A stretch of DNA of 61,668 nucleotides from Mizuhopecten yessoensis (GCF_002113885.1 NW_018408021.1:356358-418025); one strand, 5' to 3'. Shown: positions 1,367 through 55,656, counted from the stretch's first letter. Notes: generated by a model from the letters alone, not told the origin. Made by a program: numbers and translations.

Positions 1367-1611
1367 TTACTTTGGTTTTGCTTCACAAATTGCTCCGCGT
1401 GATAACGTGCATTCGTTATCATTCCAATGAACGTAGATGTTTAGCTCCAGGCAATGTTGGTGTCTGTGCAAATTATTCGGTTCGTCCTCGCCCCACGCAC
1501 AGAAATTGTTAGACCTACCACAAGGGGGCATGGGAAGAGGTGTATTGTCTTCTATCCAAACCCAAGTGTTGTTTTTGTCTATATCTGTACCTCCTATCCA
1601 AAACGATACAC
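1367..1611 (-). CDS. C-type lectin exon 4 (carbohydrate-binding loop, EPN/WND)
   Basis: VSFWIGGTDIDKNNTWVW...WGEDEPNNLHRHQHCLELNIYVHWNDNECTLSRGAICEAKPK*. Confidence 0.92.
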
Positions 1612-4600
1612 CTGTAAAGTTAGAGTCTACTTTATGTGTTAAAACATGAAATGAAATTTGTAGAATGTGCGAGTGTGTTAGGTGAATGTACGAGTGTGTT
1701 AGGTGAATGAACGAGTGTGTTAGGGGAATGTACGAGTGTGTTAGGTGAATAAAGAGTTTGTTAGGTGAATGTACGGGTGTGTAAGGTGAATGTATGAGTG
1801 TATTAGGTGAATGTACGAGTGTGTTAGGTGAATGTACGAGTGTGTAAGGTGAATTGAGTGTATTAGGTGAATGTGTACGAGTGTGTAATGCGATTTTACG
1901 AGTGTGTTAGGTGAATGTACGAGTGTGTTAGGTGAATAAAGAGTTTGTTAGGTGAATGTACGAGTGTGTAAGGTGAATGTATGAGTGTATTAGGTGAATG
2001 TACGAGTGTGTAAGGTGAAGGTATGAGTGTATTAGGTGAATGTGCGAGTGTGTAAGGTGAAGGTATGAGTGTATTAGGTGAATGTACGAGGGTGTTAGGG
2101 GAATAAAGAGTTTGTTAGGTGACTGTACGAGGGTGTAATGTGATTTTACGGGTGTGTTAGGGGAATGTACGAGTGTGTTATGTGAATGTATGAATATATT
2201 AGGTGAATGTATGAATATAATAGGTGAATGTACGAGTGTGTAAGGTGAATAAAGAGTTTGTTAGGTGACTGTACGAGTGTGTAATGTGATTTTACGGGTG
2301 TGTTAGGTGAATGTACGAGTGTGTTAGGTGAATGTACGAGTGTGCTAGGTGACTGTACGAGTGTGTAATGTGATTTTATGAGTGTGTTAGGTGAATGTAC
2401 GAGTGTGTTAGGTGAATGAACGAGTGTGTAAGGTGAATACAGAGTTTTTTTGTGACTGTACGAGTGTGTAATGTGATTTTTCGAGCGTGTAATGTGATTT
2501 TACGAGTGTGTAAGGTGACTGTACGAGTGTTGTAGGTGAATATACGAGTATGTAAGGTGAATGTACGAGTGTGTTAGGTGAATGATGTAGTGGTTAATGC
2601 ATGCATCGGGCAAAACGAGCGTAAGCGTAGTATACATTAGATTCACGTTCTTTTTCAGAGGAAACAAATGTTTGCCGAGTACAGAAAACTTCATTTTTTT
2701 CTGTTTTGTTTTTGTTTTACGGCACAAATGTAGCTCCAGGTTGTTTATTTTGACCAATATTATCAACGCTATTGATACAATTCGTCAAATGGTCTCGTGA
2801 AACTATCATATTGAGATGCCGATATACAAAAGTGTAAGTATGAAAGAGGCATTTATATCATTTGTAATATCACAAACTTTATCAGACCTATACTTGTAAG
2901 CATACATGTACCACAATACCGCTTGTACTGTACACACCAGAACATGTTACAGCTTGTTCCGAATTATTCTGACGATTTATCGACTTTTTTATATCGGTCT
3001 GTCGTCGATTTACGTCTGAACTCCGGCCCTCTATAATATGCGGGAATTAAGCGACCGCGCCTGGGTCGCTCTTCGAACTGATATTTTAGTAACAAATCGT
3101 CACCTTCACCCACATGTCGCACATGGATCGAAAGAAACAAAACGTCAGAATAATTCGGACTAGTTACAGTTTTTGTCTAACTAATAACAACTTCTGTCTC
3201 CAGGACGGACCATATCAAAGTCTTTGAAAATAGCAGTTGCTATTCCCTACTTAACGTCTAGCATTTAGGGGATGGTAACTTCTGATTCACCCGGAATAAT
3301 GTGACCGGGTGGAATGCTGTGCTGGGTGCCTTCGGCATGGTATTTCAGTGAGATAGCACTATACAGTTGGCAACATAACCGCTCTATCACTAGGAGGCAG
3401 GTACACCAACATACCATGTATTCGTCATACATGCACACCTCTTCAACACACATGGAGGCACGTCCTTAAAGGACCAACTTTGTTGATTGGACACTAAACA
3501 AAATGAAATTAACCAAACTAAAATAACTCAAATGTCTGGATATTTATCGTCTTTATGTTTTAGATTTGCCGTTTTTAAATCGTTTTTGATGTTATAAACA
3601 GCTTAGGTCATTTCAGTACGTGCCTCCATGTGTGTTATGTATTCATGCATGTGTGATGGTGTGATCGAGGCAAAGCTACCGTATATTGGTTTGATTGCCT
3701 CCTTTCGATAACGCGGATCTGATGCCGGCTTTATAGTGCTACTTCACTAAAATATAATACCAAAGGCACCTAGCATAGCATTCAGCCCGATCTCATTTTA
3801 CTGACGAACAAACTGTTGCCATTACCCTAAGTGCTTAACACTGCACGTGCACTTTCAATGACTGGGCATTATATTAATGAGTCATTCGGCGATTGGTCAA
3901 TGAAAGAAAAATATAGTAGAATGAGGGCAAATGAAAGGTGCGAGCTGGAATTTTAAACAAAATGACATATAACAATCAACAAGGTTAAATACAAAATTGT
4001 AAATCTTTTAAACAAAAGTGGCTATATCTATATCTATTTAAACAGACCAACTGTTTTTAAGTGGTTTAGAATTTTTATGTATATATTTATTCTATTATTT
4101 GAAAGTGTTAAATTGTATATTATATATACATTGTAGCTGAACAATTTGTGGTAAAAAATATAATATCAGTCGTCCAAATTAGTCGTTTAATAATAATCTT
4201 TTATTATATGTATTCGTAGTCGAATTGTGTCATAAGTTGGAGAATCTCGGTAAGTTTAATTGGATGCAAACATGTGACTAGCAAGGCAAGTTGATGTGCC
4301 AACTTTATTACCTTTATAACCATAAGTGTTTTCACATAACCAATGCAACTCGCATGAAAGGTTTTTAAATTACTCATTTCCCTGTCTATAACTGGTCTAA
4401 TAAAGCATAGTTTTAAAAATATCCATTAGCATACGTCGCCTCTGCACTTCTGCCTCAAGAAATGAATTCTCTGCTGCGTTGTTAACTGTCGCCAAATGTC
4501 CATCAACATCAATACAGTGTTGCTGAAAAAGAAATATGCATCGATACACACGGACAATTACAAAGGTTTACTATTAAAGCTAAAGGGGAAAACTTGTTTG

Positions 4601-7204
4601 ACAACGGTTTCGTTTCTTCGCAATAGCCAAGGTCGTATGAGGGCGGATAGGGCCGCACAGAGCAGCTTTCAAAAGTTATCTCAATCTCAATAAATCGTCC
4701 AACAACCGGTGAAGGAGATGTGCTTACAGGGTTTCTTGAGCACAAATGAAGGTTTCAAGGCCAAACTCCATAAAACTAAGCGAATCGTTCTTCATGTATA
4801 ACGTTTACTTAGCTATGAAAATCAATCGAACAGTGAAGAAAAAGTTTCGCTTAAAAGGTTTTTGGAGCCAAACTGTAAAGTTTCAAGGGCGAAATCCAAC
4901 AAACGGTTCATAGTTTCTTGAGAAGAAATAACAGTCTCGATGACCATATATAACCCTAAAAAATCAAAATCCCCAAATGCCCTTCGTCATGCACATCTTC
5001 ATATGATTTACCTTCGCTGTGCCAAGTAACGTAAAATAAAAATAAAACAAACAAAAAGAAAGGACGACTTTCTCTCTACGGTTCGCTTTGCTTCTTTTTG
5101 GCAAACACAAGCGCTATTTGTTTAGTGTGTGCCTTGATTTGCCGATGTTCTTCAACGTCTTTGTTACAGCTTAGGTCATACCAAGATTGGTGAAGAAAAT
5201 TGTCAGCTTATCAGATGACAATGCAGACAACATCCATATTCTGCAAAATGTTCCATTATAGTCGGCTTTCGAAAAATACATTGGGATACAGCAGGAATAT
5301 TGTATTCCCCAACCGTACAGGTGTTGTTTGTTCCGAAGTTTTATATTCAAAATAACGTGATATTGTGAGCAAAGTAGATCATTTCAAGTGTGGTAACAAC
5401 TCTTGGAATGGTATTTTCAACAATTTGCCTTTCAGATGGCTTTTTGTAACATAAGCTGAAATGATGTTACTTACCATGTGTTCGACCCATGTCTCAGACG
5501 AAGTGACAAAGAGGTAACATGATTGTTCATACTGTATCCAACCATCACGACACTTTGCAATAGCTAAATGAATGGAATATGTATGTCAACATATCAACAG
5601 TAATATAACGAGAAGGCATAATTTACACACCATTTATTTTTTGGGAAAATATGTTTGACAGTTAAAGGTGAAATAATTTTCCTGGAGCAACAAATCATAA
5701 GAGATATTGAAAAGTAAGGTGTTAGTTACTTCCTTTCTTAACGGAAGGCAATGCTTAAGTTATATCGGACCCTGAAAAAATAATTAGGTGCACTATCAAA
5801 ACATCACACCAGGTCATGTCGGAATACGTGGAAACGAGAAAGTCACAGTCAAATATTTTATCAATGAATGCAATAGTTTGACACAAATCCCTGAACGATT
5901 CTTCAATATTGAACCATCGGTGAATGAAAATTTTATTTGATTCAGTTGTTGATCCATTATAATAAGTATATGATTATTAACACTTAATTGATTTGTACAG
6001 TAAGATTTGTTACATTTTACAAGCAATTCGTATGATGCTTGTTTATTTTTACACCAACATATTTAATTCTTGTTTGATGTACTCTTTTCAGTTAACATCT
6101 TATTTTTAATGATGTTGTTTGCCTAAAAATGACTCCCATTGTCGACGGTCGTACGCTCACAGTGATATGTTGATACAAACATATTTTCATATCAGGCACG
6201 TTAGAGTATCTGTCTTGAATCTTACTATATCGGCACTGTTGATCAATAGGTGAGGCACTATCATATGTTCGTTACATGGATAACAAAAGGGCTTATCATC
6301 TCGCCACGAAACCTTCGCAAAGTTGTGAGAGGACAATGTCTTCTCTACGGTCTTCTGTGATAGCGAGTTTTGTCCAAGATTGGATTGAATGGCAACAATT
6401 TTTTGATATCAACTGACGATCTCCTTTGGCAGTTACATTTGATGCAAAATGGCAAAATTAGGTTTTAAAAGAGATTTATTGATTTGTAACTTAAGTGTTG
6501 TTTTTGCACATAAGTTTGGATTAATTGATACCAAAATTACCTTACACCATGCAATCCTTGTAAGTGAGAAATATTTATTTATAAGTTGCCTTTAATTAAT
6601 AGCACAGCAATAATGATGAGGTCACAGTTACAAAACGTAAGTCCCTAAAAGGACGCTGAATGAATAACAAGTTTTTTTCAAAATTTGCATTTTATGGCAG
6701 ATGTAATGCCAAGTTTCAATTGTGGATGCATCTCATCATTCATACATGTGTGTTAGTCTGCACCTAAATACATGTGTCGATAGTGGGACCAGGATTGCGA
6801 AATGACCCGCCTTCATAATCCTCATTTATTAAAACGAGTATTTATCCGTGTTTGTTGCACTTCCATCTTACGAATCTATCATCTGCATGGTTAATTTATT
6901 GCAGATTATACTGGTACAAGCTGAAATGTTGGAGAAGTAAAGCCACTCTTCTCTGGTGAGAGCAAAAATATCAATTCAATACAAACACGTAGCACATTCG
7001 GTAAAGGTATTTTTTACGGTAGACACAATCTACATACCTGTCCCGTATCGGTGACAAAACTGAACAGAAAGCGGTTAGAGATACAGCTTGTAATCGGGCA
7101 AACTTTTCAAAGGCAAAGACACATATCTTACCTTCCGTATGATGCCATCCCAAACCAAATATAACAAACTTCAACGCCAGAAATGTAAAATGGAGTCTAG
7201 CCAT
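1367..7204 (-). CDS. Secreted single-domain C-type lectin (perlucin-like), 4 exons, 164 aa
   Basis: Exons 7204-7132, 5563-5475, 4522-4435 and 1611-1367 join in frame through GT-AG introns (495 nt). Protein: signal peptide MARLHFTFLALKFVIFGLGWHHTEA, then CRDGWIQYEQSCYLF, CIDVDGHLATVNNAAENSFL, FWIGGTD, WVW, WGEDEPNN, HCLEL, WNDNEC, ICE = canonical CTLD motifs. Confidence 0.92.
1663..2583. repeat. Minisatellite, ~21-bp unit GAATGTACGAGTGTGTTAGGT, in lectin intron 3
   Basis: Roughly 40+ tandem degenerate copies visible directly. Confidence 0.95.
2958..3161. mobile_element. MITE-like element with TIRs TCCGAATTATTCTGACG / CGTCAGAATAATTCGGA
   Basis: 17-bp terminal inverted repeats; homologous copy at ~57269-57450. 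Confidence 0.75.
3255..3520 (+). mobile_element. SINE-family fragment (same family as 14695-15230)
   Basis: Shares ATAATGTGACCGGGTGG core and GGAGGCACGTCCTTAAA 3' block with the other copies. Confidence 0.65.
3570..3840 (-). mobile_element. SINE-family fragment, tail-to-tail with 3255-3520
   Basis: CAGCTTAGGTCATTT...TTATAGTGCTACTTCACT blocks shared with the family. Confidence 0.65.
4435..4522 (-). CDS. C-type lectin exon 3
   Basis: TTTTCAG acceptor, QHCIDVDGHLATVNNAAENSFLEAEVQRR, GTATG donor. Confidence 0.9.
5475..5563 (-). CDS. C-type lectin exon 2
   Basis: TTTAG acceptor, IAKCRDGWIQYEQSCYLFVTSSETWVEHM, GTAAGT donor. Confidence 0.92.
7132..7204 (-). CDS. C-type lectin exon 1 (signal peptide)
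   Basis: ATG at 7204, hydrophobic stretch, G|GTAAG donor in phase 1 matching exon 2. Confidence 0.8.
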
Positions 7205-10200
7205 GTCTGGATGAAGGATATCAGGGACGGGCGTACATGTACTAAATGTCTGAAGGACGCACATTGAGATAAGATCATGCTCATTGTAAAGTCAAAAGAT
7301 AAAATTGTTTGTACTGAGCGAACTTTTGGCTTTTATGAAATACAATGTTTTTTTCATCGCATGATATATTTAGGTTAAGCTCTATTAACGTTTCAATACA
7401 TAATCTTAATGCAATTACAATGTGCTTTTAGCAGATAACTACATGTGTTGTTTGCAATTTAACCGTATTTTGATATCAATGTGTAAACTAAAGAGCAAAC
7501 CGCTAATAGAAACAACGTTTTGGGAACGCACATAGATAATATCTATGTCACATTTTATTAACGGAAGATAAGCCTTATTTACAGACATGGGACGACCTTT
7601 TTAATTCGACAAATTTTAACAAGCGTGTTTCGGCTTTATCTGTAATAAATACTTATTTGCAGAATCCAGTGTTTTCTTTTTGTCTTCTGCTAAGAGAACA
7701 CTGAAGAAATCAAAATTGACCTCCCTTTTGCAAGGACATTTAACAAACAAACAAACATAGAAAATGCTTTTAATGAAGATTATTTCATGAACTGAATTAT
7801 TGTTTTTTGTAATAATTCCTTTATTGTGACAGCATAAAGATACGTTTTTCCCCTATTTCATTTAAAGGTGTGTTTGTATTTGTCACTCATCTATATCTGT
7901 TTTGTTAAAGTATTGTTCTACGGTTTATATTTAATTTGAGTTATATGGGCCTGACGATACATATACCATCGAACAAGACGTTCACAAACAAGGAATACAT
8001 AAAGAGTGTTTTTATAAAATGCGAAAATCAATTAAAGTCAACATTTGTAGCATGATAATTACAACTTCTGGTAAAATTCAATTAACGATTTTGAATTTGT
8101 TTAGTCTTAACGGGGTCCTTGGCACAAGGTCAATTTTGGCATTCAGAGTAAAAAAGAAATTCAAAAGTCGATACCAACTTTAAACGCAAAGAAAATGTTA
8201 AAATTGGCAAGATGTAAATAGCGAAATTGTTGAAGTAGTATTAATAGTATAGTATAATGTAACGGCCCATTTCCTGTTTGCACAAGGCAAATATTTGTCA
8301 TTTGTTTCATGTTTGTACATTAACATAAATATCACGAACCTATTTCAGATCTCAACATGTGAACATGTAATGTTCAACAGTATATGGAGGTATACAAACC
8401 AAGTAAGGTAAGCAAGTTAGCAAGTGTGGATGACTAATATATGTATGCCTCATTATGTTTCGGACCAAAACTAAATATCATTTTCTAATTTGTTTTATGA
8501 AAATAACACCGTTTACCTAATATATAAAATGACTTAACATAATTAACTCAGAATATGTATTGATGGAGAATGCTTTGTATTTGACATCTTTTGTGAGAAC
8601 CTCAACATCCTATAGGGGAAAACAAAATTTCGGTATTTTTCTTTCATCTTTTCGACTTATATTTTGACAAAAAATATATGAACATAATATGGTTGCCAAT
8701 TCAACTTTAGTATCCTTCAGAAACGGTCTTAAAACAAAACTATGACAAAATCTAGCGATGACGGGTTTAGCGTGTGTTGTCGGTTACTGCCAGGCTTGTA
8801 TCATTTCACAGAGTTTGTTAATGAAATACGTAAACATAGCATCATCAAGATAAAACTCGGAAGGAGTAGAGAACGTATTGAGTTATTGGATACATTGGTG
8901 AAGATTGAATATTACCGTATATATATATATATATATATAGATCTCTATAATAAATCCACAGACAAGCTGATGTTTGTCGGAATGACACCTATCAACCGGT
9001 CCCCACCAAGAAGAATATTGCATTCGGTCTCGAACTTATGTTACAGCGTATCTGTGATAAGGATGAAGACAACGATAAGTATAGAGCAGGGCTCGAATCC
9101 CAGCTACGAAAGTGTGGTTAATACAGAGAGTAGAGGGGACCAAGGGAGAGAATCCTCAGGCAAATATGATCCGAAAAGAAGCATCGGGAAGTGTACCTAT
9201 GTTGTTACGTTTTCAAAACATTTACCCAATGTATCCTGTCTAATAAGGAATCATCACCATATACTACAGAAGTGAAGACGCCTAAATTCAATCTTTCATC
9301 AACCACCTTTGGTAGTGTTTCAGGGGAGGAAACACTTTTTAGTGATGTGCTTGTAGATGACAAGACAAACAAAATTGTCAACGAAAATGTATCTGTTGTT
9401 GCTTTGCTTGAAGATAAATCATTAATTTCCTGGTCAGTAACACTACTCGCATTTCAAATTACAGCTCGGTAGAGTATGGATAGTGTACTTACAGAAATAC
9501 ATGTTCTACCTAATGTTTGGTATGCAGAAAATGATTGTTTGGTTGTATATGTGGATGAGACAGAACGCTCGTTAGAAGAACGGTTCGAAAAACCTGTGAG
9601 AGACGTCACACTGAAGGCAAAAAAAGTATATACATCAATAGGCTGATGAGAGAGAGACCTGACTCTCGACATTGTGTTGACGTCTTGTGATTCTGACGTC
9701 GTGCTTTTATGTCGTCATAGATTTAAAGAGATAATGTGACGTCTCAATTTTGTACGTCATTTCCGCTATCAATGAAGCAAAATAGATGTAACTTGATTCA
9801 ATTGCTAGCTTTCGCAACTGAAGCAGGCCAGGAGGCCGAATTATTGGGACTTAGAGTGACAATTGTTTTATCATTTTCCATCTACGGAAATCAACGGTTA
9901 TTTAAAATTGTTTGTTTGTTCAAAAAGATATGATCATCCCTAAACAACTTTACTTTTGAAGATGGCATTTGTCTTTAACCATTTTGTTTGTTTTATGTCG
10001 TTTCTGTTAATACATCTACCTTTAATTGGCCCTAATACCTACCCATTTTTGGCCTCAACGCATCTACAGTGTTAATAGGCCGTTGGAAATGAAATAACCA
10101 ACTAACTGTTGTCAAATGACTGACGTTGGAGATATGGGTTCAAGTTGACCACCGTATATTTTACTTAGCTGAGACACGAAATACAGGACACTTTAACTTT

Positions 10201-11863
10201 TAAAAAGCTGAGAAAATTAAGATCGTTTATTTTCATTTGGACCGTCGTATTCGATAAACCTTTGTGTGTCGCTTCGACATGCAGCAAGTTACAGCAGTTA
10301 AATATTTTCGCAGAACTCTCCAGCAGGTTCAGGGATTCACTGCTTTTTTCCAATGTAAACGGGACAGGTGAATATGCGTAGAAGTAATTAAATATAACTA
10401 ATTAAACAGGTGCATGATATCCTCATCGAGGTAAACAATATTTTATTGATAACTGTAACTGAGGTATTGATTAATTGATTAGATTGGTCAGACTGCAACT
10501 ATAATTTCCAATTGTTCTAACGTCCTATAACGGTGCATACTGACACTCACAAGCATGGAAGAGTTGGCTCCCTTCCTACCGGTGAATCGCCGTTACAATA
10601 GACATCATTTGAACATTTCATGCATCTGTTTGTCCTTTTGATAAGTTGAGCTACTCTGTTATTCTAATGGTACTGCTCTAGTTTTGGTTTAGATTTAAAG
10701 GGACAATTTAGTGTAAGTTTTTTTATAACCTTGTCAAATAAATCTTCATGATTATGTAGTTTGATACTCCCTATGAACAATTGATGTCGAGGCATTGACA
10801 AGAGACAATTTTTTCTTGGCGTTTTTATTCAGTAGAAATCCTTAACTGTACAGCCGTATGTTTTAGCGGCATCTGTCTGTGAATTTCTATCTAACAAAAA
10901 TGTCTTTCCAGCTGAGGAGAGAAGGTGACTTCTGATTTTATTCGCATAGCCTCTCTGAATGCATATATTCTGAATCAAAATCATCTTCCATTAACATATA
11001 AAACATCGTTAGAAATGAGTGGTCTGTTGTACGTTTAAACCTATTGATATCGTACTTTCTGTGGATTGAAATTTTCCCTGCGGCACCCTCTCAGTGCGTG
11101 CATGCTCTGATTGAACCTGTTTGTTTTTATTCAAATCCAAATGTGAACAGAAATATCTGATTAAAGGTTTATATTTTTGAAACTTATAAGTACAACAATG
11201 TGATACAAATGTAAGTGTGAACTAAGACTCAAAACTGACACTGTGTTGTCGGTCGACAGCGTAGTGCTGTACATGCTTACTTCTCATTGAAAGGCCCGGT
11301 TATCGCGCTATTTCGGTCGTAGCTATTTTCACCACCGGTTTTCCGAAAAGATGAAACTGACCACACTGGACGGCGGCTTCAGGTCATATCATTATCAACT
11401 ATGTAAACTTTTGTTAGGAGATATACATTTTCAGTATCGACTATTTTTCAGGTAATCAAAAAACTTTCTTCATTAAATAAAAAAGTATAATCCAACGTGA
11501 CCAGTGTTTACTGATGGGAAGTGGGTGTTTTGGGCCACTTTCCTTCAGTAAACCTACTGAAATACTGATCAATACTTTTTTGTTCATTGTTTGTCACGCT
11601 TCAGGTCTCAACACTTCAATTTGTGTTAGATACATGTACATGTACTTGTTTTCGTGTCTGTCATGATGATCAGTATCGTTATTTCTAAAAGTTGAAAAAC
11701 GAGCCAATTCGTTAAAATTGAATGAGGACAATTAAGAATGTCCTGATCTATTTAAAGAAAACTGAAACCGTTGGAAAATCTGAATGGTACATTTGCACGC
11801 AATTCAAGACGGAGACCGTAATACTGTGGAAAGCTGACGTTTTATTTTACTGATCATGCACAC

Positions 11864-12094
11864 TTAAAGAAAGCTGTGGTAGAATGGTGGCGCTGGAAGG
11901 TCAGTGTCCCGTCCGTAAACTGCGCACTGTTTGAATACACAGGGACTTTCCCGCCACGCATACCGAACTGCAGCTACGGTCACGTGGCCACACTGACTTG
12001 TGTTTAGAGTGACAGATGCCACATTGTGTGATATCATTGGTGCAGGTTTCCAATTTCCGGTGTTTTGATTACAATGCGCTGCTGAACAGCATAC
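11864..12094 (-). CDS. SIAE: SIAE-A exon 9
   Basis: VCCS...WKPA...VRYAWRESPCVFKQCAVYGRDTDLPAPPFYHSFL*. Confidence 0.95.
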   Translation of the reverse strand, partial: VCCSAAHCNQNTGNWKPAPMISHNVASVTLNTSQCGHVTVAAVRYAWRESPCVFKQCAVYGRDTDLPAPPFYHSFL

Positions 12095-19678: not shown

Positions 19679-19689
19679 TGTTTTCGAGT

Positions 19690-22137: not shown

Positions 22138-22368
22138 TCAAAGAAAGCTGTGGTAAAATGGTGGCCCCGGTAGGTCAGTGTCCCGTCCGTAAACTGCGCA
22201 CTGCTTGAATGGACACGGACTTTCCCGCCACGCATATCGAACGGCAGCCACGGTTACGTGGCCACACTTAATTGTGTTCAGAGTAACAGACGATACATCT
22301 TGTGATGTCATTGGTGCAGGTTTCCAATTTCCATTGTTTTTATCACAGAGCGCTTCTGAGCAGCATAC
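22138..22368 (-). CDS. SIAE: SIAE-B exon 9
   Basis: VCCSEALC...RYAWRESPCPFKQCAVYGRDTDLPGPPFYHSFL*. Confidence 0.92.
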   Translation of the reverse strand, partial: VCCSEALCDKNNGNWKPAPMTSQDVSSVTLNTIKCGHVTVAAVRYAWRESPCPFKQCAVYGRDTDLPGPPFYHSFL

Positions 22369-22770
22369 CTTTCAGTAAAGAAATGATACATTTACTATAA
22401 TATATCTACTAACAAATAGTTAGTTACTTAACGGTCAAGCAAGGGTCAAGTCACTTCGGGCCTTACAACAATGATAAGGTTCACTTAAACACTGGCACTG
22501 TCATGCGTCGTCAGAGGATAATTCAGATACTGATCAATTATATAATATACAGTGATTATTACGCGTGTCGATACATTATTACATGTATGACCCTTCTTGT
22601 ATTAATGTAAGATTTGCATACTTGATCCATACAAATGTAAATAACTTCTTCAAAATCCCGTCTTGCATTTTTCTGTTTAGTAATCATAAAAGGTTACTGG
22701 AACTTCTTGTTTATATTTCAAATAACGTTCATATATAAAGATATGCTTCATAATATTGTGTTTACTCTAC

Positions 22771-22966
22771 CTCAAAGTTAGTGGTGTTAGCATTAACCCT
22801 GATAGGCGTTCGTCCCTGGTCATACTCTATATTCAGGGAGTGACCGGTCAATTGGTAGTCCGAAAGGTATGGGCCCTGGTACTCCAGCCCAGACTTGTGG
22901 TATGCCACAGCAAGAGCAGATAGGGCCAGACGGGATGCCACATCATGCTTGAAACGGGGATGGATG
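22771..22966 (-). CDS. SIAE: SIAE-B exon 8
   Basis: IHPRFKHDVASRLAL...NFE. Confidence 0.92.
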
Positions 22967-23149
22967 CTGAATTGAGAGAGAACACCAAATTAATATTGCA
23001 GTAAAGATAATAACAATAAAATACAACATAACCTGAAGTAAATTGACATATTTGAAAACAATTGACATTTACAACGAAGCGACTATGTATTTGATGTTTT
23101 GTGATATATTCTCGAATTTCGGGAGTGTTTGGATTATTTTTATTGTGGT

Positions 23150-23400
23150 AGGCATCCTTCATTGACCAGGCCATTTAAGGACGTCCCTCCATGTGTATTA
23201 TGTATGTGTGCAAGCGACGTGTATTTGATGCCCACTTGAGAGTACTACCTCAGTGAGCGAGACGCAATGCCGATACGCCTGGTTAAAAAATCTACCAAAT
23301 CACATTAATATATTGACACCGGATTACGATTACCCTGAAAGTTAAAAGTGTATCTTGGAACAAGTACCATTTAAAGGACTTTGGTATATCCCAGCCTGGG
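23150..23400 (-). mobile_element. Degenerate SINE-family copy
   Basis: GCCATTTAAGGACGTCCCTCC, GTACTACCTCA and GACTTTGGTAT blocks shared with 14695-15230. Confidence 0.55.
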
Positions 23401-32598: not shown

Positions 32599-32609
32599 TG
32601 TTTTCGAAC

Positions 32610-34610: not shown

Positions 34611-34841
34611 TTAGTGTAAATTATGGTAAAACGGTGGTCCTGGAAGGTCAGTGTCCCTCCCATACTAGGCACACTCCTTAAAAGCGCAAGGACTTTCCCT
34701 CCAGGCATATCTGACGGCAGACAGGGGTACGTGACCACAAGGACTTGTATCAAGGGTAATGGACGATACATCATGTGACGTGATGGGTGCCGGTTGCCAT
34801 ACTCCATAGTTTAAGTTGCATTCACGATACGAACAACACAC
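34611..34841 (-). CDS. SIAE: SIAE-C exon 9 with internal TAG
   Basis: VCCSYREC...RYAWRESPCAFKECA*YGRDTDLPGPPFYHNLH*. Confidence 0.88.
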
Positions 34842-46800: not shown

Positions 46801-48988
46801 ACACCATGGGCAAATTTAAGGAATATAACATTGTCAATATGACTTAATATTTAGTGAAGACGTAACAAATCTAGCTAACAAACCTTGGTACCAAATCGTG
46901 CCGTATATTGTGTTCCTTAGCAAGGGGGAGATCATGCCATTCCACAGTCCCGAGTTAGCAATATTGTTCGCTCTACAAATGAAACGCCAAGTTAAACAAA
47001 TAAGTTCGCAAAATAATGTATTTAACACCTCATATTAAAAAAACAAGAAGCAAAAATGAAAAAAACTAATTAAAGCAAAATAGATACTATTCGCAGTACA
47101 AATTAAAGTTAGTTAGCAACGTAATGACTAAGCAAGAGTTATGTCGAGCCTGAAACAACATGACGGAACATTTACAAAACATAATTCATCAAAAGGAAAC
47201 GGAAAGACCAAAGGTTAAAAACTGCAGTGTAAGTACACTGCGACATGAAATAATGTTTGTCTCGAATCCTGTCCGACATCAGTGAGTCGAATTGTAAAAA
47301 CGTTTATTGTTAATATGTTACATGTACCATCATGAAATTAAAAATAAAACACTTTCTTTTCAAAACTTATTTTGCAACTCCTCAAGATAAAGTAAAGTTT
47401 CAATTTGTTCATTATGACAAAGAGGATTTGAAGATAAATGAAACGGTCAATAATGTTTATTAAAACTTGAAATAAGACACTTATTGATTGAGTTACACAC
47501 TCTTTTAGACCGTTATTGTTTTACTGGATTTTATGTTAAACATATTAACGTATGCGCTTGACAAAGTCAAAAACGTGTTTCGGTTCCAAGTAGTCTGTTT
47601 CATCTGAAATTGTATTTTATATTACCAAAAAGATGTCCATGCAATAGTGTGTTTTTTTCAAAATGATAAAGAATCATTATTTTATGGTGACTTATCTTTA
47701 TTTTAATGGTTAACCTACGTATAATATCTATATCATATACTTCAGTACCGTCACGAGGTTACGTGTACTGGTAATTAAAAGATAATTTTACAAATAGAAA
47801 GGATGATGTCTCGCCTCAGAATACGCAACAAGTATTCCATCAACTGCTTGGTTAAGTCCTGGTACATGTATCACCTTTAATTTCCTTGTAATTATTGCAA
47901 CGTGGTATGCAATGGTCAGATTTGCATTAGATTTTCACATTTATATATGTCGCACTATAAAGTCGGCATTAGTTCCGCGCTATCACAACGAGACAAACAC
48001 GAACATATCGCAGCCTCCCAAAACACACACGCATACACTACACGTATGCATCTTGTACACAGAGGAGGCCGTCCTTAAATGTCCATAGCTATTAATAGGA
48101 CGTTAAACAATAATAAACCAAATCAAAATATATATGTATATATATACTCCCCAAAAAAACAAAATACAAAATGATAAAAATTGATAATTAATTAACATTA
48201 CAGTTTTGTTACACTGTCAACTTGATCACCATTACTTGGTTATTTGTGAAATGATTGTAATAGTTCTATACTTACTATGTGTCGCATACATTGGATTATG
48301 AAACTCACCTTTTTCGCGATGAACATTGGCTAAGAGCGTCAGGTGAAGACCACAACTCGATTTTCGTCCCACCAAAATTTGATTCTATCAATCCGATCGG
48401 ATATCCAAACTGTGAGGACAGACGCTTTCCAAACAACCAGCATACAGCGGAAAAGCTTGTCAGGGACGCTGTTGGGAATGTAGATGTGAATCATTTGAGA
48501 GGATGTTTATAACAGGCTAAACGTCCCGCAAACCCAGATATTGTTCAAGGTCAATGAATGATCAACAAATTGTAAAATCACGCAAAGTCATATAAATGAC
48601 ATTGAACATGTTTCTTTTTTAATTGTCAATTGTTAATTGAGTTACTTCACATTGATAATAAAAAAGAACGAAAGAGGTAAATTAACATTGATAAATCAGA
48701 TGTTTTTTATTACATTGATTCAGATAATAAGAAATAGTGGTTCCTCAATGATTGTACATACGTAGTTGGTTATCATGTTTATCCAACTAAAGTTACTTAG
48801 TTTTCGAATTGTATCAGGAGGTGTAAAGAGTGCTATAACAATTTGAAAATTAACTTAAAGAGTTAGACAAAAATGATAATCAACCATATATCATGTTTGT
48901 CTAACTCTCTTAAGTTAATTTTCAAATTGTTATAGCACTCTTTACACCTCTTGATACAATTCGAAAACTAAGTAAAAAAACTCACAAT

Positions 48989-49019
<31 letters not shown>

Positions 49020-52000
49020 CACACACACACACACACTTAAAGCGTTTTATCAGAGCCTCGAATTAGAATTATTATTATTATCATATTAATGTTCCAGAAA
49101 CCCAACCCATGTTCTTTTTTGTAAACACTATTCTTGTTTCCGATCACGGAAACAATCGCCATGAACTATGACATTACAATAGCAGATGACTTCGCAAAGC
49201 ATTGTTACTTGACGTCATAATTAGAAGATTGACCGATGAAATTTCGTTCGTGATGCTACTCACTAGTGGGTTACCAAAAACTGTTTACCAACTCCCAGTA
49301 CAAATGAGTCGGGAGGTAGAAAACTTTAAGTGTTTTTTAGAGAAAATCTGTGTACTTTCTTTTGAATATAATGTCGAGATTGACATCATTTGAAGACACT
49401 ATATCCTTTATCAGTTTTTGATGGTTTTTGAACTGAAAATAATTATACAAACACTCTTTAGCATACAAAAAATAGGATTTTCACGGAGCCAATCTAAAAT
49501 TGCCCGAAACTAATATCACATTATATATCGGTACAACTCTATACATATAAGTGTCGGTCTTCAACTACATGCCTTCATATCATACCTAATGCATGATTTC
49601 AACAACTACCAATAATGTTTGATTGTAATTGTTAAATGTAAAATGTTGGTTTCCCCTGATCGATTGTTCGTGTTTTATTTTCAAAAATTGTTAATCAAGA
49701 TATATATAATTATGTCTGTACCAGTTTTTGGTTTTGCCGGATTTGATGTCCAATGAACAACTAAGGTAATTTAAGGACATGTTTCCATGTGTGTTGTGTA
49801 TGCGTGTGTGTGCTGGAGTTTCTTCCTTGTAATAGCGCGAGTCCGATTCCGACTTTATAATGATTCCTCACGGAAATATCATACCAAAGGCATCCAGCGC
49901 AGCATTCCTCCCAGTCACATCATATTGACAACGGATGAACCAGTTGTTGTCATTACCCTAAATGCTTAATGTTAATCAGAGAATAACAACTACTATTAAA
50001 AGAACTTTGTATGGCCCGGCCTGGGGACAGAACCCTTTGACTTCCTCACCTTGGTAAACATTCAACATGAAAGCCTAACAAAACAAAACCAGTGATGTAT
50101 TGGAGATGAGTTTAGAAAATAATCATACAAGATAGCTTTATCCTGTAAAGTGTAGGCAAACAACGAAAATTGACATTTCGCAGCGTTTTTGACCATTTCC
50201 CGATCTATTGTTTCCGTAGTTACCAGTCTTGTAGACAACGGGGCAGGTGATTATGGGGTTAACATATACATTAAGATTATTACCAAACTCAGCGGGTTGA
50301 CCCTGTTGTGTGCATTTTCGATTTTGTCTGAGGTCGTTCCAGTTTGTCTCTGTCGGTGGTTAATGGAGTTTTCGTTCAAGTTATGACTTGGTCTTTCATT
50401 TCGGTAGTGCCTCCTAGGCACCCGCTTTATTTGCCATTACACATAAAAATCCATCGGATAAAAATTGTAATAGGTAAAAGAGAAATATATTTGTCATTCA
50501 TTTAAATATGAAGTATCAAGTTTATTCCACATTTAAATATATCAAATACAATTACGTAAAACTGGCCTTAAAGTATCATCCATTGAAATTGAAAAATCAT
50601 TTTTCATATATTGTACTGCGTATTCCTGTCTTCGTATGCTCGTATAAAGAAGACATTTATTTAATGATTTTAGAGATGAAATTTTATTGCTTATTTTAAG
50701 GAAAAATTAAAGCATTTGAATGTTTTAAATGAAAACTTGAAATTACATATTGTAGCTTGTATTTGTAAATATACAAAAGAAATCGTCGGCAGCGATCACA
50801 CAATAGATACAATGAAAACCATAATGTGTTCGTTCAAACGTACTTGTACAAGATTACTTGCGAATAAATAAAAAAAAATTGTGGTTTCAGTTATCTTCGG
50901 CTATTTCGACATTTTTGTTTGTATTACGGTCATTGACAATGTGAGTCATTTAGGGCAAATAATACTATTAAAAGAAATATTCACAAAAACTAATACAACC
51001 AGCAAAAAATTAAAATGGTAAAATGTGTAAAAGATGAAAAAAACATCAATAGCACACACATTGGTTATTTTGTTTTGTTTTTGTCATTTAGGGTGAAACA
51101 ACACTGTATAAAGAAAGATTTGAAAACGTGAGGACTTCGAACTTGAAATTGGAAAAGTAAAAAGGTATACAAATGCAGGTTCATCAACAGGGAACGAGTT
51201 GGTTATAAAATATATCATTACTTGTTTTAAAGATCAATTGAGTGTAAATAATCATATATTGATAGCAAAGAAACTGTATCAAATAAGCTTTTCGTAAGCA
51301 GTGTATTATAGTCTGTCGGTTGTTTGTTTAAAATTAGCGCCTGCAAACATAAACTGTTAATGTTTAATCACATGCATACAAATAAGGTTGTATCTTTGTG
51401 TGACCTAGTTATGACCTAAGCACAGTCGCGAGAGGACAAATTCGGTTTGGTATTATTTTGTTTATCATACTGTTAACAGCTAAGGTAATATAAAGACGTG
51501 TCTACTATTCTATTATGGCCCTTTCCCCAGGGCACTGTTCTCTTATAGTGTTGTCTGAGGAGGTATAGTGCCCTAGCCGTTAGACAACACTATAAGAGAA
51601 CAGTCCCCTCGGGAAAGGGCCATAATATATTTAGTACATCACAAGACTGTCATTTGACAATAAAAAGTAACATATTTCATAATGAACAACAAATGTCAAT
51701 AAGATATGTAGATCTCCTTTTTTTTGTTGCGTATTCAATTCAGTCGTTTGAATCACCGCTAGGTCACATACGGTCCCCCTTTTCAGTAGGAAGTCTTTTA
51801 AGGACTGTGACGTCAAATGGTTTCGTCTGCTTCGTCTTTATGCATTGCTGAACCTCTGCGAAGCAATCGGCATTTCTGGTCCCGAAATTCGAAGCCATTT
51901 TGGCAGACGACAACTAACAATGAAGTGAAAGTAGAATATATATAGCGCACCCTAGGAGAAGGGGCGCAACTCTTAGCGCCACGCTACTTTTCCCGCCGTC

Positions 52001-55000
52001 TCAGCGGTTCAAAACAAAGGTACAGTGCCTGTCTCCAGGTATAGTTCCCGTTGTCAAGGGCGGATGCTAACTATACCAAATACAAGGGTAGTTTTCCAAT
52101 AGCTTACTTAAAAATTATCATGTGATGTACTGAATGTGTTTAATGTATGCGTGCCTATGTTAATGTATGCTTGAGGCAGGGTATGTTGATGAATGCATCT
52201 CCTTGCGATTGCGCGGATCTGATGCTGACGTTACAGTGCTACCTCAGTAAGATACTATGCCACAGGTACCCAGAGCAGTATTCCACCTTGTCACATTATA
52301 TTGACAAAGGGTTAACCTAAATGCCAAATGTTAAGTAGGGAATGACAACTATCATTGTTAAGGATTTTTGTATGTCCCGGACTGGGCAAAAGCTCAACAG
52401 AAAGGCAAAAAGTAAGGCATTGCCAAACAAGGCGCTAGGAAACACACTTATTTTTAGAAAGTAGAGATAAGACATAAAGTTCCCAAATGTTGCAATGTTG
52501 GCCACACACACACACATATTAAGACCCCCGCGCTAACATCCAGGCCAACAAGAATGATTAATTTAAGTTGCAAAAACTTGTTTCATAATTGTTGTAAAAT
52601 AAATAAAGTTAATATTATGTTAAGGAAGGAGAGTATAGCTGCCTCTCTGCGGTCTGCTAGACCTGTTGCACATGAACTTACATTAGGTTGAATATAGCGC
52701 AAAATAACTTAATGTTATTTATTCAGGCCATTTATTTTCCTAATTTGTTTTCATAAAATTTGTCAGTACAGATTTAAAATCATTATCAGACAGTTTGATA
52801 TCATTTGAGTGCACTGTGCTAAACACATTTTCGAAAACGAAAATCATTGTTTGGATCAAACACCGTGATAAGATAATAAATCACCAGTCCAGCTACTCCT
52901 TCGATTGCAAAAATGTCATATTCATCTTATCGATATCATTGACAACATCACACTATATTGTGGTCAGATACCTACATCTTGAAGGTTTTGCCCAGCTTGC
53001 GATGGTATGTGGATGAAAATCCCCCAGACTGGACGAAGAATGGTAATGGTTTGCCTTGAACACTCGTATATCTTGGTAGTTAGAGGCGTCCGCGTATTCA
53101 GAAGTGTCGTTGATAAGCTGTTAGTCAGAAAGAGACACGGATGTGAACATTTCTACCAAATGCGTACAGAGAGAGAGAGAGAGAGAGATTTGTATCAGCT
53201 TATTACAATAAAGATATTACCTTTAATGATTTAGGTAACGTTATGTCTGTATACCTATAGCTATAGGGGTTGTTATGTATTCACACAAAAAAACAGCCTT
53301 TCGATGAAGATAAATGAATACCTGTCTTCCATTCAAGCTAACAATTGTGTAGGTTTACAATATGACTTGCGCATTATTAGACATTTTATATTTTCAAGTA
53401 GAGACGTAATGACCATAACGGCAATTTTCTTTTCTTTGTCATCATATCAAAATAATGAAATCAATGTACTGACATCAATTTACTGAAAGTATATTAACTT
53501 AAAGACACCTAGGATTTGTTTTTTTTATATATTTACCTTACTTAGAGTAAATTCCATGTTGCTTTGGCCAGAGCACAACCACACATCACCAAACATTACG
53601 TCATGAAGAGTTATCGCCCCTAGACTTGACCTTGCGGTCAGGTTATATGGACCATAATGATGTGACGTCATAACTACCTTAACCATCCAAATCAGCCCGC
53701 CGTATGCATCATGAGTAACGTTACTATGAGCAACCTCATGACCATTTAATGAAACATGAACGGTATCGCCAAGCTTCGAAGACTTGCCCCATACAATTGT
53801 ACCACGTGTTCCCTTCTGTAACACCACGTGGTCAGAGTATGAAGAGGCAAACGTAAACGTTGATTCGCATGCTGAAACAAGGAATGCAGCACATCGCGAT
53901 TCATAAGATACGCAAAAATAAAATATTGGTAAAATTGTGGCAATCGTTTCCCAAACTACAACACTAGCCACGATAAAATTGTTTTACTATTTCATACACA
54001 TCAAATCTGTTATTCGTGTGAAAAATGTTTTAGAAGACCTTAATAAAACCAAAATCAAACCAAATTTTCACAAATTTTACAATATTTTCTAAGAGCAACT
54101 CTCAATTTCATATCTCTGCAATATATAATATACATTTATCTATCAGCTTATCTACATTATAGTACGTGTGTCAACACCCGACTTAGTGAATCGTATGTCG
54201 CATTTCAAACTGACCTTGTAAGCAATGCCACTAAGTAAAACTTTTGAAAATCTTTTACGTTACACAGCATTCTTATGTTATGCATTAATAAGATGTAATA
54301 CGTACACGTTATGCATAGGCTCAGACACACAATGAACAGTATTGTTTTCAAGTCCACCATATTGAACGGTCCTTTAACGGTCCTTTAACGTCAATCCATG
54401 TTATCAGTGATCGTGGAACAAAACTTGCCTTATCTCGAGTCCTAGCCATTCACATATGTCCTCTCATAGTTAAGAACCGTACGAGTTGAGTAAAATGGCC
54501 TGCTGTATCCAACTGTATGTAATCGTACGAGATGACTTATGGGGAACCCTATTCAAGGTGTTGTTTCCTTAAATTATTAAGACTTCTGTTCATTTCAATT
54601 CGTGTTTTTGGAACGTAAAAACCTCACAGCAACGATTTATTTTAACTGCATTATTACGTAAATGTCACGTAATTGTTTTTCCTTCCAATTTTATACAAAG
54701 TACGGGACCATTCGATAAAATGGTTTGATAAAACAAGACATAATGACTGTAACAATGATTAAAAACAAATATAACATCATATACAATCAAATGTGTTACA
54801 CAAATTCTTCAAAACTGTAACGCACGATACATAAATAACTTAATTTAATTAAAAGACGGATTTCTTTAGGAATTGATACAAAGTATCAATGTTTGTAATC
54901 AATGAATTTAAATACTGTGGAATGTAACGCTTCTACAAAATCTCGAAATTTATCTACATGAAGCCAAAAGAGGTCACCTTTATGACTCTCAGTACACAAC

Positions 55001-55656
55001 TCCGTTGTGTAATCGTAAGAGTTATCCGATATGTCATTGCACAATATTGTCACTCTTAAGGCAAAACAAATACAATATCAGAACAGATGATTTAGTATGT
55101 AATGCTAATATATTGGACAGCGTGTAATTAAATATCAGAGTTATACGCTGTAATGATATGCCTGTGTTATAACTCAAATGCATTGCCACTCACAATGAAA
55201 TTGCGTTGTACCTCGAATTCAAACATAAAACAATATTTGCGCTTGGTTTTCTCTTCCGTAATTTAACAAACTGACATGTTTATGTCAAAATACATTTTTG
55301 TTCCACGGACAACCTGCACTGAAGAGGTCAAACTGTCATTTGTTATTATTTTTTGACCCACTGTATGGGAATTATCTCAACAATCATTATGTTTTTGTTT
55401 TAGTTTCATTCATTTATATGTCCACCGCACATCATAATTACAAATTCCTCCAACCATTATTTTGAAATTTCTATTGACATTAAAACAACCTCGGTCCTCC
55501 ATCGTGAAGCTAAATTTCAACTACGTGAACTTCTACCTCTGTCATAACAACGGAATCCATACCTAGTAGTTCAGCAGCGTATCGTGCATCTACACCATGG
55601 AGAGTCAACAGAAAAACAATCAATGAAATAATTACATGCAAATGTTTGTCAAACAT
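34611..55656 (-). CDS. SIAE: Sialate O-acetylesterase-like, copy C (9 exons; premature TAG at 34667-34665 gives 492 aa instead of 510 aa)
   Basis: Exons 55656-55563, 53871-53537, 53117-52976, 48468-48309, 46972-46884, 46486-46356, 37936-37782, 37303-37108, 34841-34611. Phases are consistent and GQSNM, QGESN and IHP are retained. Confidence 0.88.
34993..35867. repeat. Two adjacent long inverted repeats: 34993-35239 (112-bp arms) and 35247-35867 (~300-bp arms)
   Basis: Arms are near-perfect reverse complements around a 23-nt loop that occurs in opposite orientations in the two hairpins. Confidence 0.92.
36745..37085 (-). mobile_element. SINE-like fragment
   Basis: GTTAAAGTCCTCGCAACAGCCAGGGTCATATAAGGA and TTAGTCGCCTCTT blocks resemble the ends of the 14695-15230 element. 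Confidence 0.5.
37108..37303 (-). CDS. SIAE: SIAE-C exon 8
   Basis: IHPRFKHDVASRLAL...NFE. Confidence 0.93.
37782..37936 (-). CDS. SIAE: SIAE-C exon 7
   Basis: LAGNHNGTNGTYFAWMRWTQTAAYGKVPNAKMPNTFMAVAMDLPDFKSPYG. Confidence 0.93.
38150..38570. repeat. Degenerate ~40-bp tandem repeat (...CAGTAAGCGC..TTATAAAACCAAC...), resuming at ~45820-46000
   Basis: Visible periodicity; similar units flank the LINE/minisatellite block on both sides. Confidence 0.7.
38867..39606 (+). pseudogene. LINE ORF1 remnant with SGNH/GDSL esterase domain (frameshift near 39397)
   Basis: Blocks VILWASN (I), AKSG (II), VILGTNN (III), ISVTLPR, DTQGVH (V). Confidence 0.75.
39711..43389 (+). pseudogene. LINE ORF2 remnant (endonuclease/reverse transcriptase)
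   Basis: Motifs as listed for the element; fragmented over several frames. Confidence 0.92.
43670..44380 (+). mobile_element. 3' fragment of a CR1/L2-like LINE ORF2
   Basis: YRSLVRPSLEY..DPH...KVEMVQRRATR...MLNTLEWHSL..R...SFFPRTNSDWN, typical C-terminus of CR1-group elements. Confidence 0.8.
43996..44151 (+). mobile_element. 5'-truncated 156-bp copy of the Tx1-type LINE 3' end, flanked by a 34-bp duplication
   Basis: Matches 43488-43646; flanks 43962-43995 and 44152-44185 are ATTAAAAATGACTTnnTAACTATAAGGAAAACTC. Confidence 0.8.
44540..45800. repeat. Minisatellite, 31-bp unit TACCGGGGAGTTAGGTTTGTGTTATATATAT (first units 37 bp)
   Basis: About 40 tandem copies visible directly. Confidence 0.95.
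46356..46486 (-). CDS. SIAE: SIAE-C exon 6
   Basis: GESNTPNPGKYACQFPAMIADWR...FPFGFVQ. Confidence 0.93.
46884..46972 (-). CDS. SIAE: SIAE-C exon 5
   Basis: SGLWNGMISPLLRNTIYGTIWYQ. Confidence 0.93.
47950..48125 (+). mobile_element. SINE 3' fragment
   Basis: Close reverse complement of 14705-14875. Confidence 0.8.
48309..48468 (-). CDS. SIAE: SIAE-C exon 4
   Basis: FSAVCWLFGKRL...PIGLIESNFGGTKIELWS. Confidence 0.93.
48793..48975. mobile_element. Fold-back/MITE-like near-perfect palindrome (~85-bp arms)
   Basis: TTACTTAGTTTTCGAATTGTATC... is the reverse complement of ...GATACAATTCGAAAACTAAGTAA. Confidence 0.8.
49730..50070 (-). mobile_element. SINE-family copy
   Basis: CTAAGGTAATTTAAGGAC, CCCAGTCACAT and GGGGACAGAACCC blocks. 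Confidence 0.7.
51511..51626. repeat. Hairpin with ~45-bp arms (MITE-like)
   Basis: TATTATGGCCCTTTCC..CTGTTCTCTTATAGTGTTGTCT pairs with AGACAACACTATAAGAGAACAG..GGAAAGGGCCATAATA. Confidence 0.75.
51633..52131. mobile_element. ~500-bp non-autonomous DNA element with 14-bp TIRs, nested in a SINE copy
   Basis: AGTACATCACAAGA / TCATGTGATGTACT (13/14 match); SINE sequence stops near 51503 and resumes near 52133. Confidence 0.6.
52133..52500 (-). mobile_element. SINE-family copy
   Basis: GTGCTACCTCA, GTCACATTATATTGACAA and GCTCAAC blocks. Confidence 0.65.
52976..53117 (-). CDS. SIAE: SIAE-C exon 3
   Basis: LINDTSEYADASNYQDIRVF...SWAKPSR; 142 nt. Confidence 0.88.
53537..53871 (-). CDS. SIAE: SIAE-C exon 2
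   Basis: 335 nt; FGDVWLCSGQSNMEFTLSK. Confidence 0.93.
55563..55656 (-). CDS. SIAE: SIAE-C putative exon 1 (signal peptide MFDKHLHVIISLIVFLLTLHGVDA)
   Basis: Hydrophobic core with VDA cleavage-like site; G|GTATG donor in phase 1 fits exon 2. Not homologous to A/B exon 1. Confidence 0.65.

What the first reader, a model, noticed from the sequence alone, without database searches (positions are those of the whole stretch)
1367..55656. Co-oriented locus of three secreted sialate O-acetylesterases plus a secreted C-type lectin: candidate glycan unmask-and-bind module
Seen: four minus-strand genes, all with signal peptides and all acting on glycans, with nothing else clearly coding between them. 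Known: SIAE removes O-acetyl groups from sialic acids, is single-copy in mammals and gates lectin (Siglec) binding; protostomes generally make little sialic acid. Inference: the expanded esterases may act on foreign O-acetylated glycans (microbial nonulosonic acids, algal or bacterial polysaccharides) in mucus, gut or haemolymph and expose ligands for the lectin. Adjacency alone does not prove a functional link in a eukaryote.
Basis: partly seen in the sequence, partly recalled or inferred. Interest (0 to 1): 0.7.

Follow-up and report, generated by a model that had tools for sequence, protein, structure and literature searches.

The report
Scallop acetylesterase repeats beside a lectin
This scallop locus holds one intact and two damaged copies of a sugar-deacetylating enzyme gene next to a lectin gene; the enzymes likely strip acetyl groups from food or microbial sugars rather than the animal's own sialic acid, and a working partnership with the lectin is possible but not shown.

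Summary
The four minus-strand genes are real, and the lectin has a fifth exon outside the stated start. Only esterase A is intact and strongly spliced in RNA. B has a 1,772-bp repeat inside exon 2. C has a stop 18 codons early that removes invariant residues. All three belong to a mollusc-wide, multi-copy subfamily of CE20/SIAE-like esterases that falls apart from vertebrate SIAE in quick trees; this genome holds at least eight such genes at four loci. The lectin is an EPN/WND (mannose/glucose/fucose-type) C-type lectin, not a sialic-acid-type receptor. For a link: accession numbers place its orthologue beside the esterases in Pecten maximus, and it is spliced in the same three RNA runs as A. 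Against: no lectin lies near the three other esterase loci, a tandem duplication copied the whole lectin but only a broken esterase tail, and the wider region is syntenic among scallops anyway. Best reading: an ordinary tandem array of likely digestive or mucosal de-O-acetylases with a co-expressed neighbour. The more interesting point is the family's expansion in a phylum reported to have lost sialyltransferases, which ten literature searches did not find described.

The parts
701..7204 (-). C-type lectin CTL1, 173 aa, 5 exons (7204-7132, 5563-5475, 4522-4435, 1611-1371, 731-701); hydrophobic leader, single domain, EPN and WND motifs
   Evidence: PF00059 66.7 bits against cut-off 22.6; exon 2-3 joint in 3 of 4 RNA runs
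1663..2584 (.). 21-bp minisatellite in CTL1 intron 3
11864..19678 (-). Esterase A, intact, 497 aa, 9 exons (19678-19624, 18451-18117, 17580-17439, 16537-16375, 16128-16046, 14670-14540, 13757-13600, 12830-12635, 12094-11864); Ser122 in GQSNM, WYQGE, His358
   Evidence: all 8 introns spliced in X13, X14, X16; model pLDDT 93.4, TM 0.86-0.88 to mammalian SIAE
22138..32598 (-). Esterase B, 81.5% identical to A, same 9-exon layout, disrupted in exon 2 in this assembly
   Evidence: exon 4-5 joint in X14 at contig depth about 9 against 400-572 for A
29927..31698 (.). 1,772-bp dispersed repeat with internal short tandem repeats, inserted in B exon 2; likely a non-autonomous transposon remnant
   Evidence: 146 matches from 40 of 649 candidates scored in G000; thousands-fold depth in DNA runs; junction at 31699 bridged by an X1 contig
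34611..54360 (-). Esterase C, 66.9% identical to A, 9 exons, catalytic motifs intact but truncated at 479 aa
   Evidence: matches P0009; orthologues in Pecten, Ylistrum and Argopecten are full length
34665..34667 (-). Premature TAG in C exon 9; removes the last two predicted strands, including Tyr481 (69 of 69) and Pro488 (69 of 69) in A numbering
   Evidence: same letters in DNA run X1
38741..43386 (+). Fragmented LINE-like retroelement in intron 6 of C: ORF1 with weak GDSL-esterase match, then endonuclease- and RT-like pieces
   Evidence: PF13472 E=0.0011, below cut-off; endonuclease/RT motifs recognised from memory, not hit by Pfam
44542..45808 (.). 31-bp minisatellite in intron 6 of C
1..12691 (-). 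Part of a unit (whole lectin gene plus the last 1.3 exons of esterase A) that is tandemly duplicated just outside the window at G000:C4694:344559-355169
   Evidence: pieces 70-92% identical; second lectin 83.8% identical in protein; esterase tail has a 1-base deletion and a Cys-to-Tyr change

Best explanation
The window holds a tandem array of CE20/SIAE-like esterase genes, one intact and two damaged, whose product likely enters the secretory or lysosomal route and likely removes O-acetyl groups from ingested or microbial glycans, beside an EPN-type C-type lectin that is transcribed in the same samples but likely works independently. Shown: gene structures, catalytic motifs, fold, splicing of A and the lectin, lesions in B and C, and the family's multi-copy state in molluscs. 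Inferred from family knowledge: Ser122 attacks the acetyl ester, activated by His358 as in the mammalian Ser-His dyad, with the Gln of WYQGE in the oxyanion hole. Inferred from weaker evidence: the substrate is exogenous because molluscs reportedly cannot sialylate; the site is digestive gland, gut or mucus; B and C are loss-of-function alleles tolerated through redundancy; the linkage is inherited regional gene order among scallops.
For: Fold and motifs. Mollusc clade (SH-like 99, 30 rows, chiton to scallop) apart from vertebrate SIAE and the scallop's four other copies (one search agrees for the scallop and pteriomorph clades). The clade differs at two conserved positions near the catalytic region: aromatic in HPR-x-K in 25 of 28 against Asp in 11 of 17 others; His in RW-x-Q in 0 of 28 against 13 of 17. 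At least 8 genes at 4 loci. Loss of GT29 in molluscs (PMC5811610). No match to PF00777, PF03102 or PF02348 in G000 (weak). CE20 enzymes act on many polysaccharides. No lectin at 3 other loci. Lectin duplicated with only a broken esterase tail. Paralogue D, 320 kb away, also stays on the same scaffold or chromosome in Ylistrum and Pecten, so the region as a whole is conserved.
Against: The Pecten lectin orthologue (XP_033739754) is numbered next to the esterases (..756..758) on the same 51.4-Mb sequence, so the linkage has lasted. Lectin and A are both spliced in X13, X14 and X16 and both absent in X21. Plain chance adjacency is only 0.7-4%. A CASD1-like O-acetyltransferase gene is present and sialic acids are reported in cephalopods and a slug (PMC10225777), so an endogenous substrate is not excluded. 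The negative family searches are weak: the same kind of search with PF03629 missed all eight esterase genes, and the PF00777 control rang nowhere. No tissue label, substrate or localisation was observed. Trees were quick, without bootstrap, midpoint-rooted, and built from hits chosen by likeness to A.
Confidence: 0.55

Rival explanations
1. Unmask-and-bind module in revised form: the esterase removes O-acetyl groups from mannose, glucose or fucose residues of microbial or algal surfaces, freeing the ring hydroxyls that an EPN lectin needs, and the genes stay linked because they share regulation.
For: Linkage apparently kept in Pecten by accession order; both spliced in the same 3 of 4 runs; adjacency unlikely by plain chance; same strand and both with leader exons. 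EPN lectins bind mannose/glucose/GlcNAc (PMC12842671); that O-acetylation would block this is inference from recalled lectin chemistry.
Against: 0 of 3 other esterase loci have a lectin in 12-30 kb flanks. The duplication copied the lectin without a working esterase. The only relative over 50% identity found was a scallop protein, whereas the esterase subfamily spans molluscs. The three positive runs were found because they hold gene A, and contig depth is a poor measure of expression.
Confidence: 0.12
2. The enzymes are housekeeping lysosomal or secretory esterases acting on the animal's own O-acetylated glycans (made by the CASD1-like enzyme, on sialic acid or another sugar), for example in mucus, shell matrix or gonad; the lectin is an unrelated neighbour.
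For: CASD1-like gene present as 7 exon matches; mammalian SIAE has lysosomal and cytosolic forms (PMC6160089); closest structures are mammalian SIAE; SIAE-named proteins occur in a coral skeletal proteome and are listed with spermatogenesis genes in a snail.
Against: Repeated lineage-specific duplication and damaged alleles fit environment-facing enzymes better than housekeeping ones (inference). The genome keeps four other copies outside the expanded clade that could serve this role.
Confidence: 0.2
3. The esterases are true sialate O-acetylesterases that de-O-acetylate bacterial or dietary nonulosonic acids, and the lectin then recognises the exposed sialic acid, as in the Siglec pathway.
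For: 41-44% identity and TM 0.86-0.88 to mammalian SIAE; Arg after the catalytic His is kept (66 of 69); one bacterial CE20 clade is predicted to act on O-acetyl sialate.
Against: The lectin has EPN/WND; in the review's table no EPN/WND bivalve lectin is listed with a sialic-acid ligand, and one (GYL) binds better after desialylation. The window genes lie outside the vertebrate clade.
Confidence: 0.05

Closest known systems
Mammalian sialic acid acetylesterase (SIAE; PDB 8F9O, 8F9P, 8F9Q, 8F9R)
   Same: Same three-part fold without ancillary domain (TM 0.86-0.88, 41-44% identity); GQSNM Ser, WYQGE, DL-x-D..IHPR His, C-terminal LPAPPF; N-terminal leader.
   Different: Separate mollusc clade with at least 8 genes in this genome against one in human; HPRFK and RW(A/T)Q for HPRDK and RWHQ; host lineage reportedly lacks sialyltransferases; substrate untested.
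Bacterial CE20 polysaccharide de-O-acetylases (XacXaeA 7KMM, Fl8CE20_II 9H4U, PpCE20_II 9EGA)
   Same: Same SGNH core flanked by two beta-sandwiches with Gln for Asn (TM 0.77; PMC12313940).
   Different: 20-28% identity; they carry an inserted ancillary domain and, as described for these enzymes, a water-mediated triad; they sit in polysaccharide-use loci.
Single-domain EPN/WND bivalve C-type lectins (Cflec-5, AiCTL-3, codakine)
   Same: Secreted single domain with EPN and WND.
   Different: Sequence subfamily found here only in scallops (57% to Pecten, which has EPD); His-rich loops; ligand untested.
Duplicated SIAE in the earthworm Eisenia fetida (PMC6160089)
   Same: More than one SIAE-like gene in a lophotrochozoan, function unknown.
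   Different: Two genes on separate contigs with opposite expression; no lectin linkage or mollusc subfamily described in the passages read.

Membership tests
CE20 / SIAE-like SGNH esterases | Catalytic Ser in GQSNM and His in the block V IHP motif | tested here: met
   Ser122 and His358/357/358 in A, B, C; both invariant in 69 of 69 rows
CE20 / SIAE-like SGNH esterases | Gln in place of the SGNH Asn (WYQGE) and block II GGT | tested here: met
   Present in A, B, C; definition from PMC12313940
CE20 / SIAE-like SGNH esterases | SGNH domain flanked by N- and C-terminal beta-sandwiches, no ancillary domain in eukaryotes | tested here: met
   A: pLDDT 93.4, TM 0.86-0.88 to 8F9O-R. C lacks the last two predicted strands; B is interrupted in the N-terminal sandwich
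Vertebrate-type SIAE (EC 3.1.1.53) | Orthology to vertebrate SIAE | tested here: not met
   A, B, C, D fall in a mollusc clade (99) apart from the vertebrate rows; quick trees, no bootstrap, no formal clade test
Vertebrate-type SIAE (EC 3.1.1.53) | Hydrolysis of 9-O- or 4-O-acetyl sialic acid | not testable with these tools
   Needs an enzyme assay
Vertebrate-type SIAE (EC 3.1.1.53) | Endogenous sialylation pathway supplying the substrate | tested here: inconclusive
   No PF00777, PF03102, PF02348 match but the search is insensitive to split genes; CASD1-like gene present
C-type lectin domain proteins | PF00059 domain with conserved cysteines | tested here: met
   66.7 bits, cut-off 22.6
C-type lectin domain proteins | Ca-site-2 motifs EPN and WND (mannose-type) | tested here: met
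   Both in CTL1 and CTL2; EPD in the Pecten orthologue
C-type lectin domain proteins | Ca-dependent sugar binding | not testable with these tools
   Needs a binding assay; motif predictions often fail in bivalves (PMC12842671)
SIAE-Siglec gating pathway | Partner is a sialic-acid-binding Ig-type lectin | tested here: not met
   The neighbour is a C-type lectin with EPN/WND
Functionally linked eukaryotic gene cluster | Linkage kept across species more than background synteny | tested here: inconclusive
   Kept in Pecten by accession order and sequence length only; background not measured; paralogue D is also on the same sequence
Functionally linked eukaryotic gene cluster | Co-expression | tested here: inconclusive
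   Both in 3 runs, neither in 1; runs selected on gene A, tissues unknown
Functionally linked eukaryotic gene cluster | Partners duplicate together or recur at paralogous loci | tested here: not met
   0 of 3 other loci; duplicate unit has a whole lectin and a broken esterase tail

The most novel reading that the evidence does not exclude
Molluscs, having lost their own sialylation, repurposed and repeatedly expanded an SIAE-derived CE20 subfamily as the first animal-encoded polysaccharide de-O-acetylases, and in scallops one of them is co-regulated with an EPN lectin so that stripping acetyl groups from microbial or algal surfaces exposes the lectin's ligand.
Probability: 0.1. Interest if true: 0.7.

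Novelty: new member of a known kind. Interest (0 to 1): 0.3.

Why it matters
If A deacetylates polysaccharides, a family annotated everywhere as 'sialate O-acetylesterase' would be an overlooked animal carbohydrate-active enzyme for digesting algae or countering the O-acetyl masking that microbes use, and the annotation of many mollusc genes would need to change. If deacetylation also licenses lectin binding, it would be an enzyme-gated recognition step in an invertebrate, relevant to particle sorting and immunity in farmed bivalves. If neither holds, this is a routine tandem array with two damaged alleles beside one of some hundreds of lectin genes.

Tried and rejected
1) ATG 55656 as start of C: rejected; ATG 54360 gives a phase-1 exon of the same 55-nt length as in A and B and matches P0009. 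2) Rescue of B by splicing out the insert: the two upstream AG acceptors I traced by hand either run into the TAA before the second half of exon 2 or are out of frame; skipping further would delete a conserved motif. 3) An empty B allele from reads: the depth-400 X14 contig that skips the insert carries gene A letters, and the X9 joint (side 26) fits gene A's genomic sequence, so neither proves it. The public B model has Ala-Ser at the break, letters absent from the genome there, which hints at an intact transcript elsewhere (inference). 4) The TAG in C as an assembly error: rejected by X1; X9 covers it with 2 unlisted differences, so polymorphism is open. 5) The orphan last exon beyond the lectin as an alternative 3' end of A: rejected, it is part of a duplicated block with a frameshift. 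6) ORFs at 8.7-10.4 kb and other long ORFs: no Pfam match above cut-off among the non-esterase, non-lectin ORFs in the 23 pieces scanned, no RNA in 7811-9547. The atlas gave only generic lectin clusters. 8) PF03629 family search in G000 found one intronless match on a 1,087-bp contig and none of the eight genes. 9) No complex prediction was run, as direct binding is not claimed. 10) Earlier scan notes: nothing in three look-ups. 11) Ten paper searches: 0 papers with both 'sialate O-acetylesterase' and 'yessoensis'; 6 with it and 'bivalve', 5 listed, 4 opened, and the passages read do not treat bivalve SIAE. No supplements were read; expression tables there may bear on tissue.
Full report
Gene anatomy. 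Six-frame translation and self-comparison showed three sets of homologous exons and a lectin on the minus strand. Exon-level modelling gave three 9-exon genes with identical intron phases and GT-AG ends. A (497 aa) is identical to public protein P0001, named by its source as sialate O-acetylesterase-like of Mizuhopecten yessoensis. A-B identity is 81.5%, A-C 66.9%, B-C 64.4%.

Two of three esterases are damaged. In B the first 23 bases of exon 2 are separated from the rest by 1,772 bp that recur across the genome (146 matches from 40 of 649 candidates scored), with an in-frame TAA before the second half. An X1 contig bridges one junction. B is still transcribed weakly: a spliced exon 4-5 contig at depth about 9 in X14, against 400-572 for A. 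In C a TAG at 34667-34665 ends the protein at 479 aa. X1 has the same letters. The lost tail includes two predicted strands and residues invariant in 69 of 69 aligned relatives, while Pecten, Ylistrum and Argopecten orthologues are full length. Whether either lesion is fixed could not be settled.

What the enzyme is. The model of A (pLDDT 93.4) matches mammalian SIAE at TM 0.86-0.88 and bacterial CE20 polysaccharide acetylesterases at 0.77. PMC12313940 (passages and section 6) assigns eukaryotic SIAE to CE20, describes its Ser-His dyad (citing Ide et al. 2024, which I did not read), and lists xylan, xyloglucan, pectin and N-glycan contexts for bacterial members; PMC13450560 (passages) adds one sialate clade among twelve. 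The name therefore does not fix the substrate.

The family is expanded across molluscs. G000 has at least eight genes at four loci: A, B, C; D 320 kb away; three on C1786; one on C5390. The best 120 of 7,972 hits include several copies each from oysters, mussels, pearl oyster, clams, abalones, limpets, snails and a chiton. In two quick trees (91 and 51 rows, chosen from these hits, no bootstrap) A-D form a scallop clade (100) inside a pteriomorph clade (99-100). In the 51-row tree a mollusc clade of 30 rows (99) excludes vertebrates and the other four scallop genes; in the 91-row tree, rooted near two bacterial rows, those mollusc rows are not drawn as one clade but vertebrates still group with the other mollusc copies (93). 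A/B, C and D each have orthologues in other scallops. Two positions separate the groups imperfectly.

Is there sialic acid to act on? PMC5811610 (passages) states that molluscs lost GT29 sialyltransferases and that Lophotrochozoa lost the supply systems; PMC10225777 (passages) cites sialic acids in cephalopods and a slug. My searches found no PF00777, PF03102 or PF02348 match but did find a CASD1-like gene. The negatives are weak, since the same method missed all eight esterases. An exogenous substrate is the more likely reading, not a shown one.

The lectin. It is a single-domain protein with EPN and WND, the mannose/glucose/GlcNAc signature, though such predictions often fail in bivalves (PMC12842671, passages). 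Bivalves have about 200 to 500 such genes (PMC10140915, section 2.1); G000 gave 148 matches from 150 of 476 candidates scored. The only non-Mizuhopecten relative over 50% identity among the 150 listed was a Pecten protein.

Evidence on a link. For: the Pecten lectin (XP_033739754) and esterases (..756..758) share a 51.4-Mb sequence and near-consecutive accessions; in M. yessoensis the same numbering tracks the known order (..168..170..171-173), though B's number (..145) does not. The lectin exon 2-3 joint appears at depth 81-136 in X13, X14 and X16, where A is at 175-572, and neither has reads in X21; the X14 exon-1 contig carries second-copy letters. Plain chance is 0.7-4%. Against: the three runs were found because they hold A, tissues are unknown and contig depth is crude. 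A lectin profile over 120 kb, 50 kb and 60 kb around the other three loci, and 30 kb beyond the window, hit nothing; it hit only CTL1 and CTL2. The window's first 12.7 kb is tandemly duplicated just outside it, giving a whole second lectin but only a frameshifted esterase tail behind a repeat. Paralogue D is also co-located with A-C in Ylistrum and Pecten, so the neighbourhood is conserved generally. I could not measure background synteny.

Literature. Ten searches found no description of the mollusc expansion or of this locus. Scattered mentions exist: two paralogues in an earthworm (PMC6160089), an immune-responsive transcript in a snail (PMC3299671; PMC8791074), a testis-related list (PMC11184841), a coral skeletal proteome (PMC7853314), a gut-microbiome enzyme (10.1101/2020.09.13.295170) and an abbreviation list (PMC9334734); all seen as passages only. 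Most subscription papers are not searched.

Verdict. The genes are already annotated members of known families. The module is an unproven reading with modest support. The residual interest is the untested substrate of a mollusc-expanded CE20 subfamily. Interest 0.3.

Noticed in passing
G000:C4694:344559-355169 (L002:8160 to L001:8770): Tandem duplicate of window 1-12691: an intact second lectin (P0382, more His-rich, EPN/WND kept) plus a broken esterase-A tail joined to a short dispersed repeat.
   Followed up: yes
G000:C2031 (L004, L005) and G000:C5232 (L006, L007): Small scaffolds that repeat the lectin/esterase-tail unit and the 5' part of gene C; probably uncollapsed alleles.
   Followed up: partly
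window 38741-43386 (+): Broken LINE-like element whose first ORF has a weak GDSL-esterase match, lying antisense in intron 6 of esterase C.
   Followed up: partly
G000:C4694:332758-333093 (-), in L003: Exon that looks like a neuromedin-U/pyrokinin-type peptide receptor, the next gene beyond the lectins (identification recalled, not tested).
   Followed up: no
G000:C4694:752107-758206 (+), L012 and L036: Exons that look like an aminopeptidase N, next to esterase D (identification recalled).
   Followed up: no
G000:C72795:68-808 (L013): Intronless PF03629 match on a 1,087-bp contig; a different SGNH type, possibly a contaminant.
   Followed up: partly
G000:C5283:278816-294523: Multi-exon CASD1-like O-acetyltransferase gene in an animal reported to lack sialyltransferases; its acceptor is unexplained.
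   Followed up: partly
P0007, P0025, P0131, P0161: Clam and pearl-oyster models of 766-997 aa; P0007 holds two esterase units in tandem. They may be fused tandem genes or annotation merges.
   Followed up: no
P0002: One Ylistrum paralogue has Asp for Gly in the GQSN motif.
   Followed up: no
window 14701-15230, 3192-3840, 26836-27100, 47949-48127, 49727-50081, 52134-52488: A family of short dispersed repeats recurs in introns of all four genes and at the duplication breakpoint.
   Followed up: no
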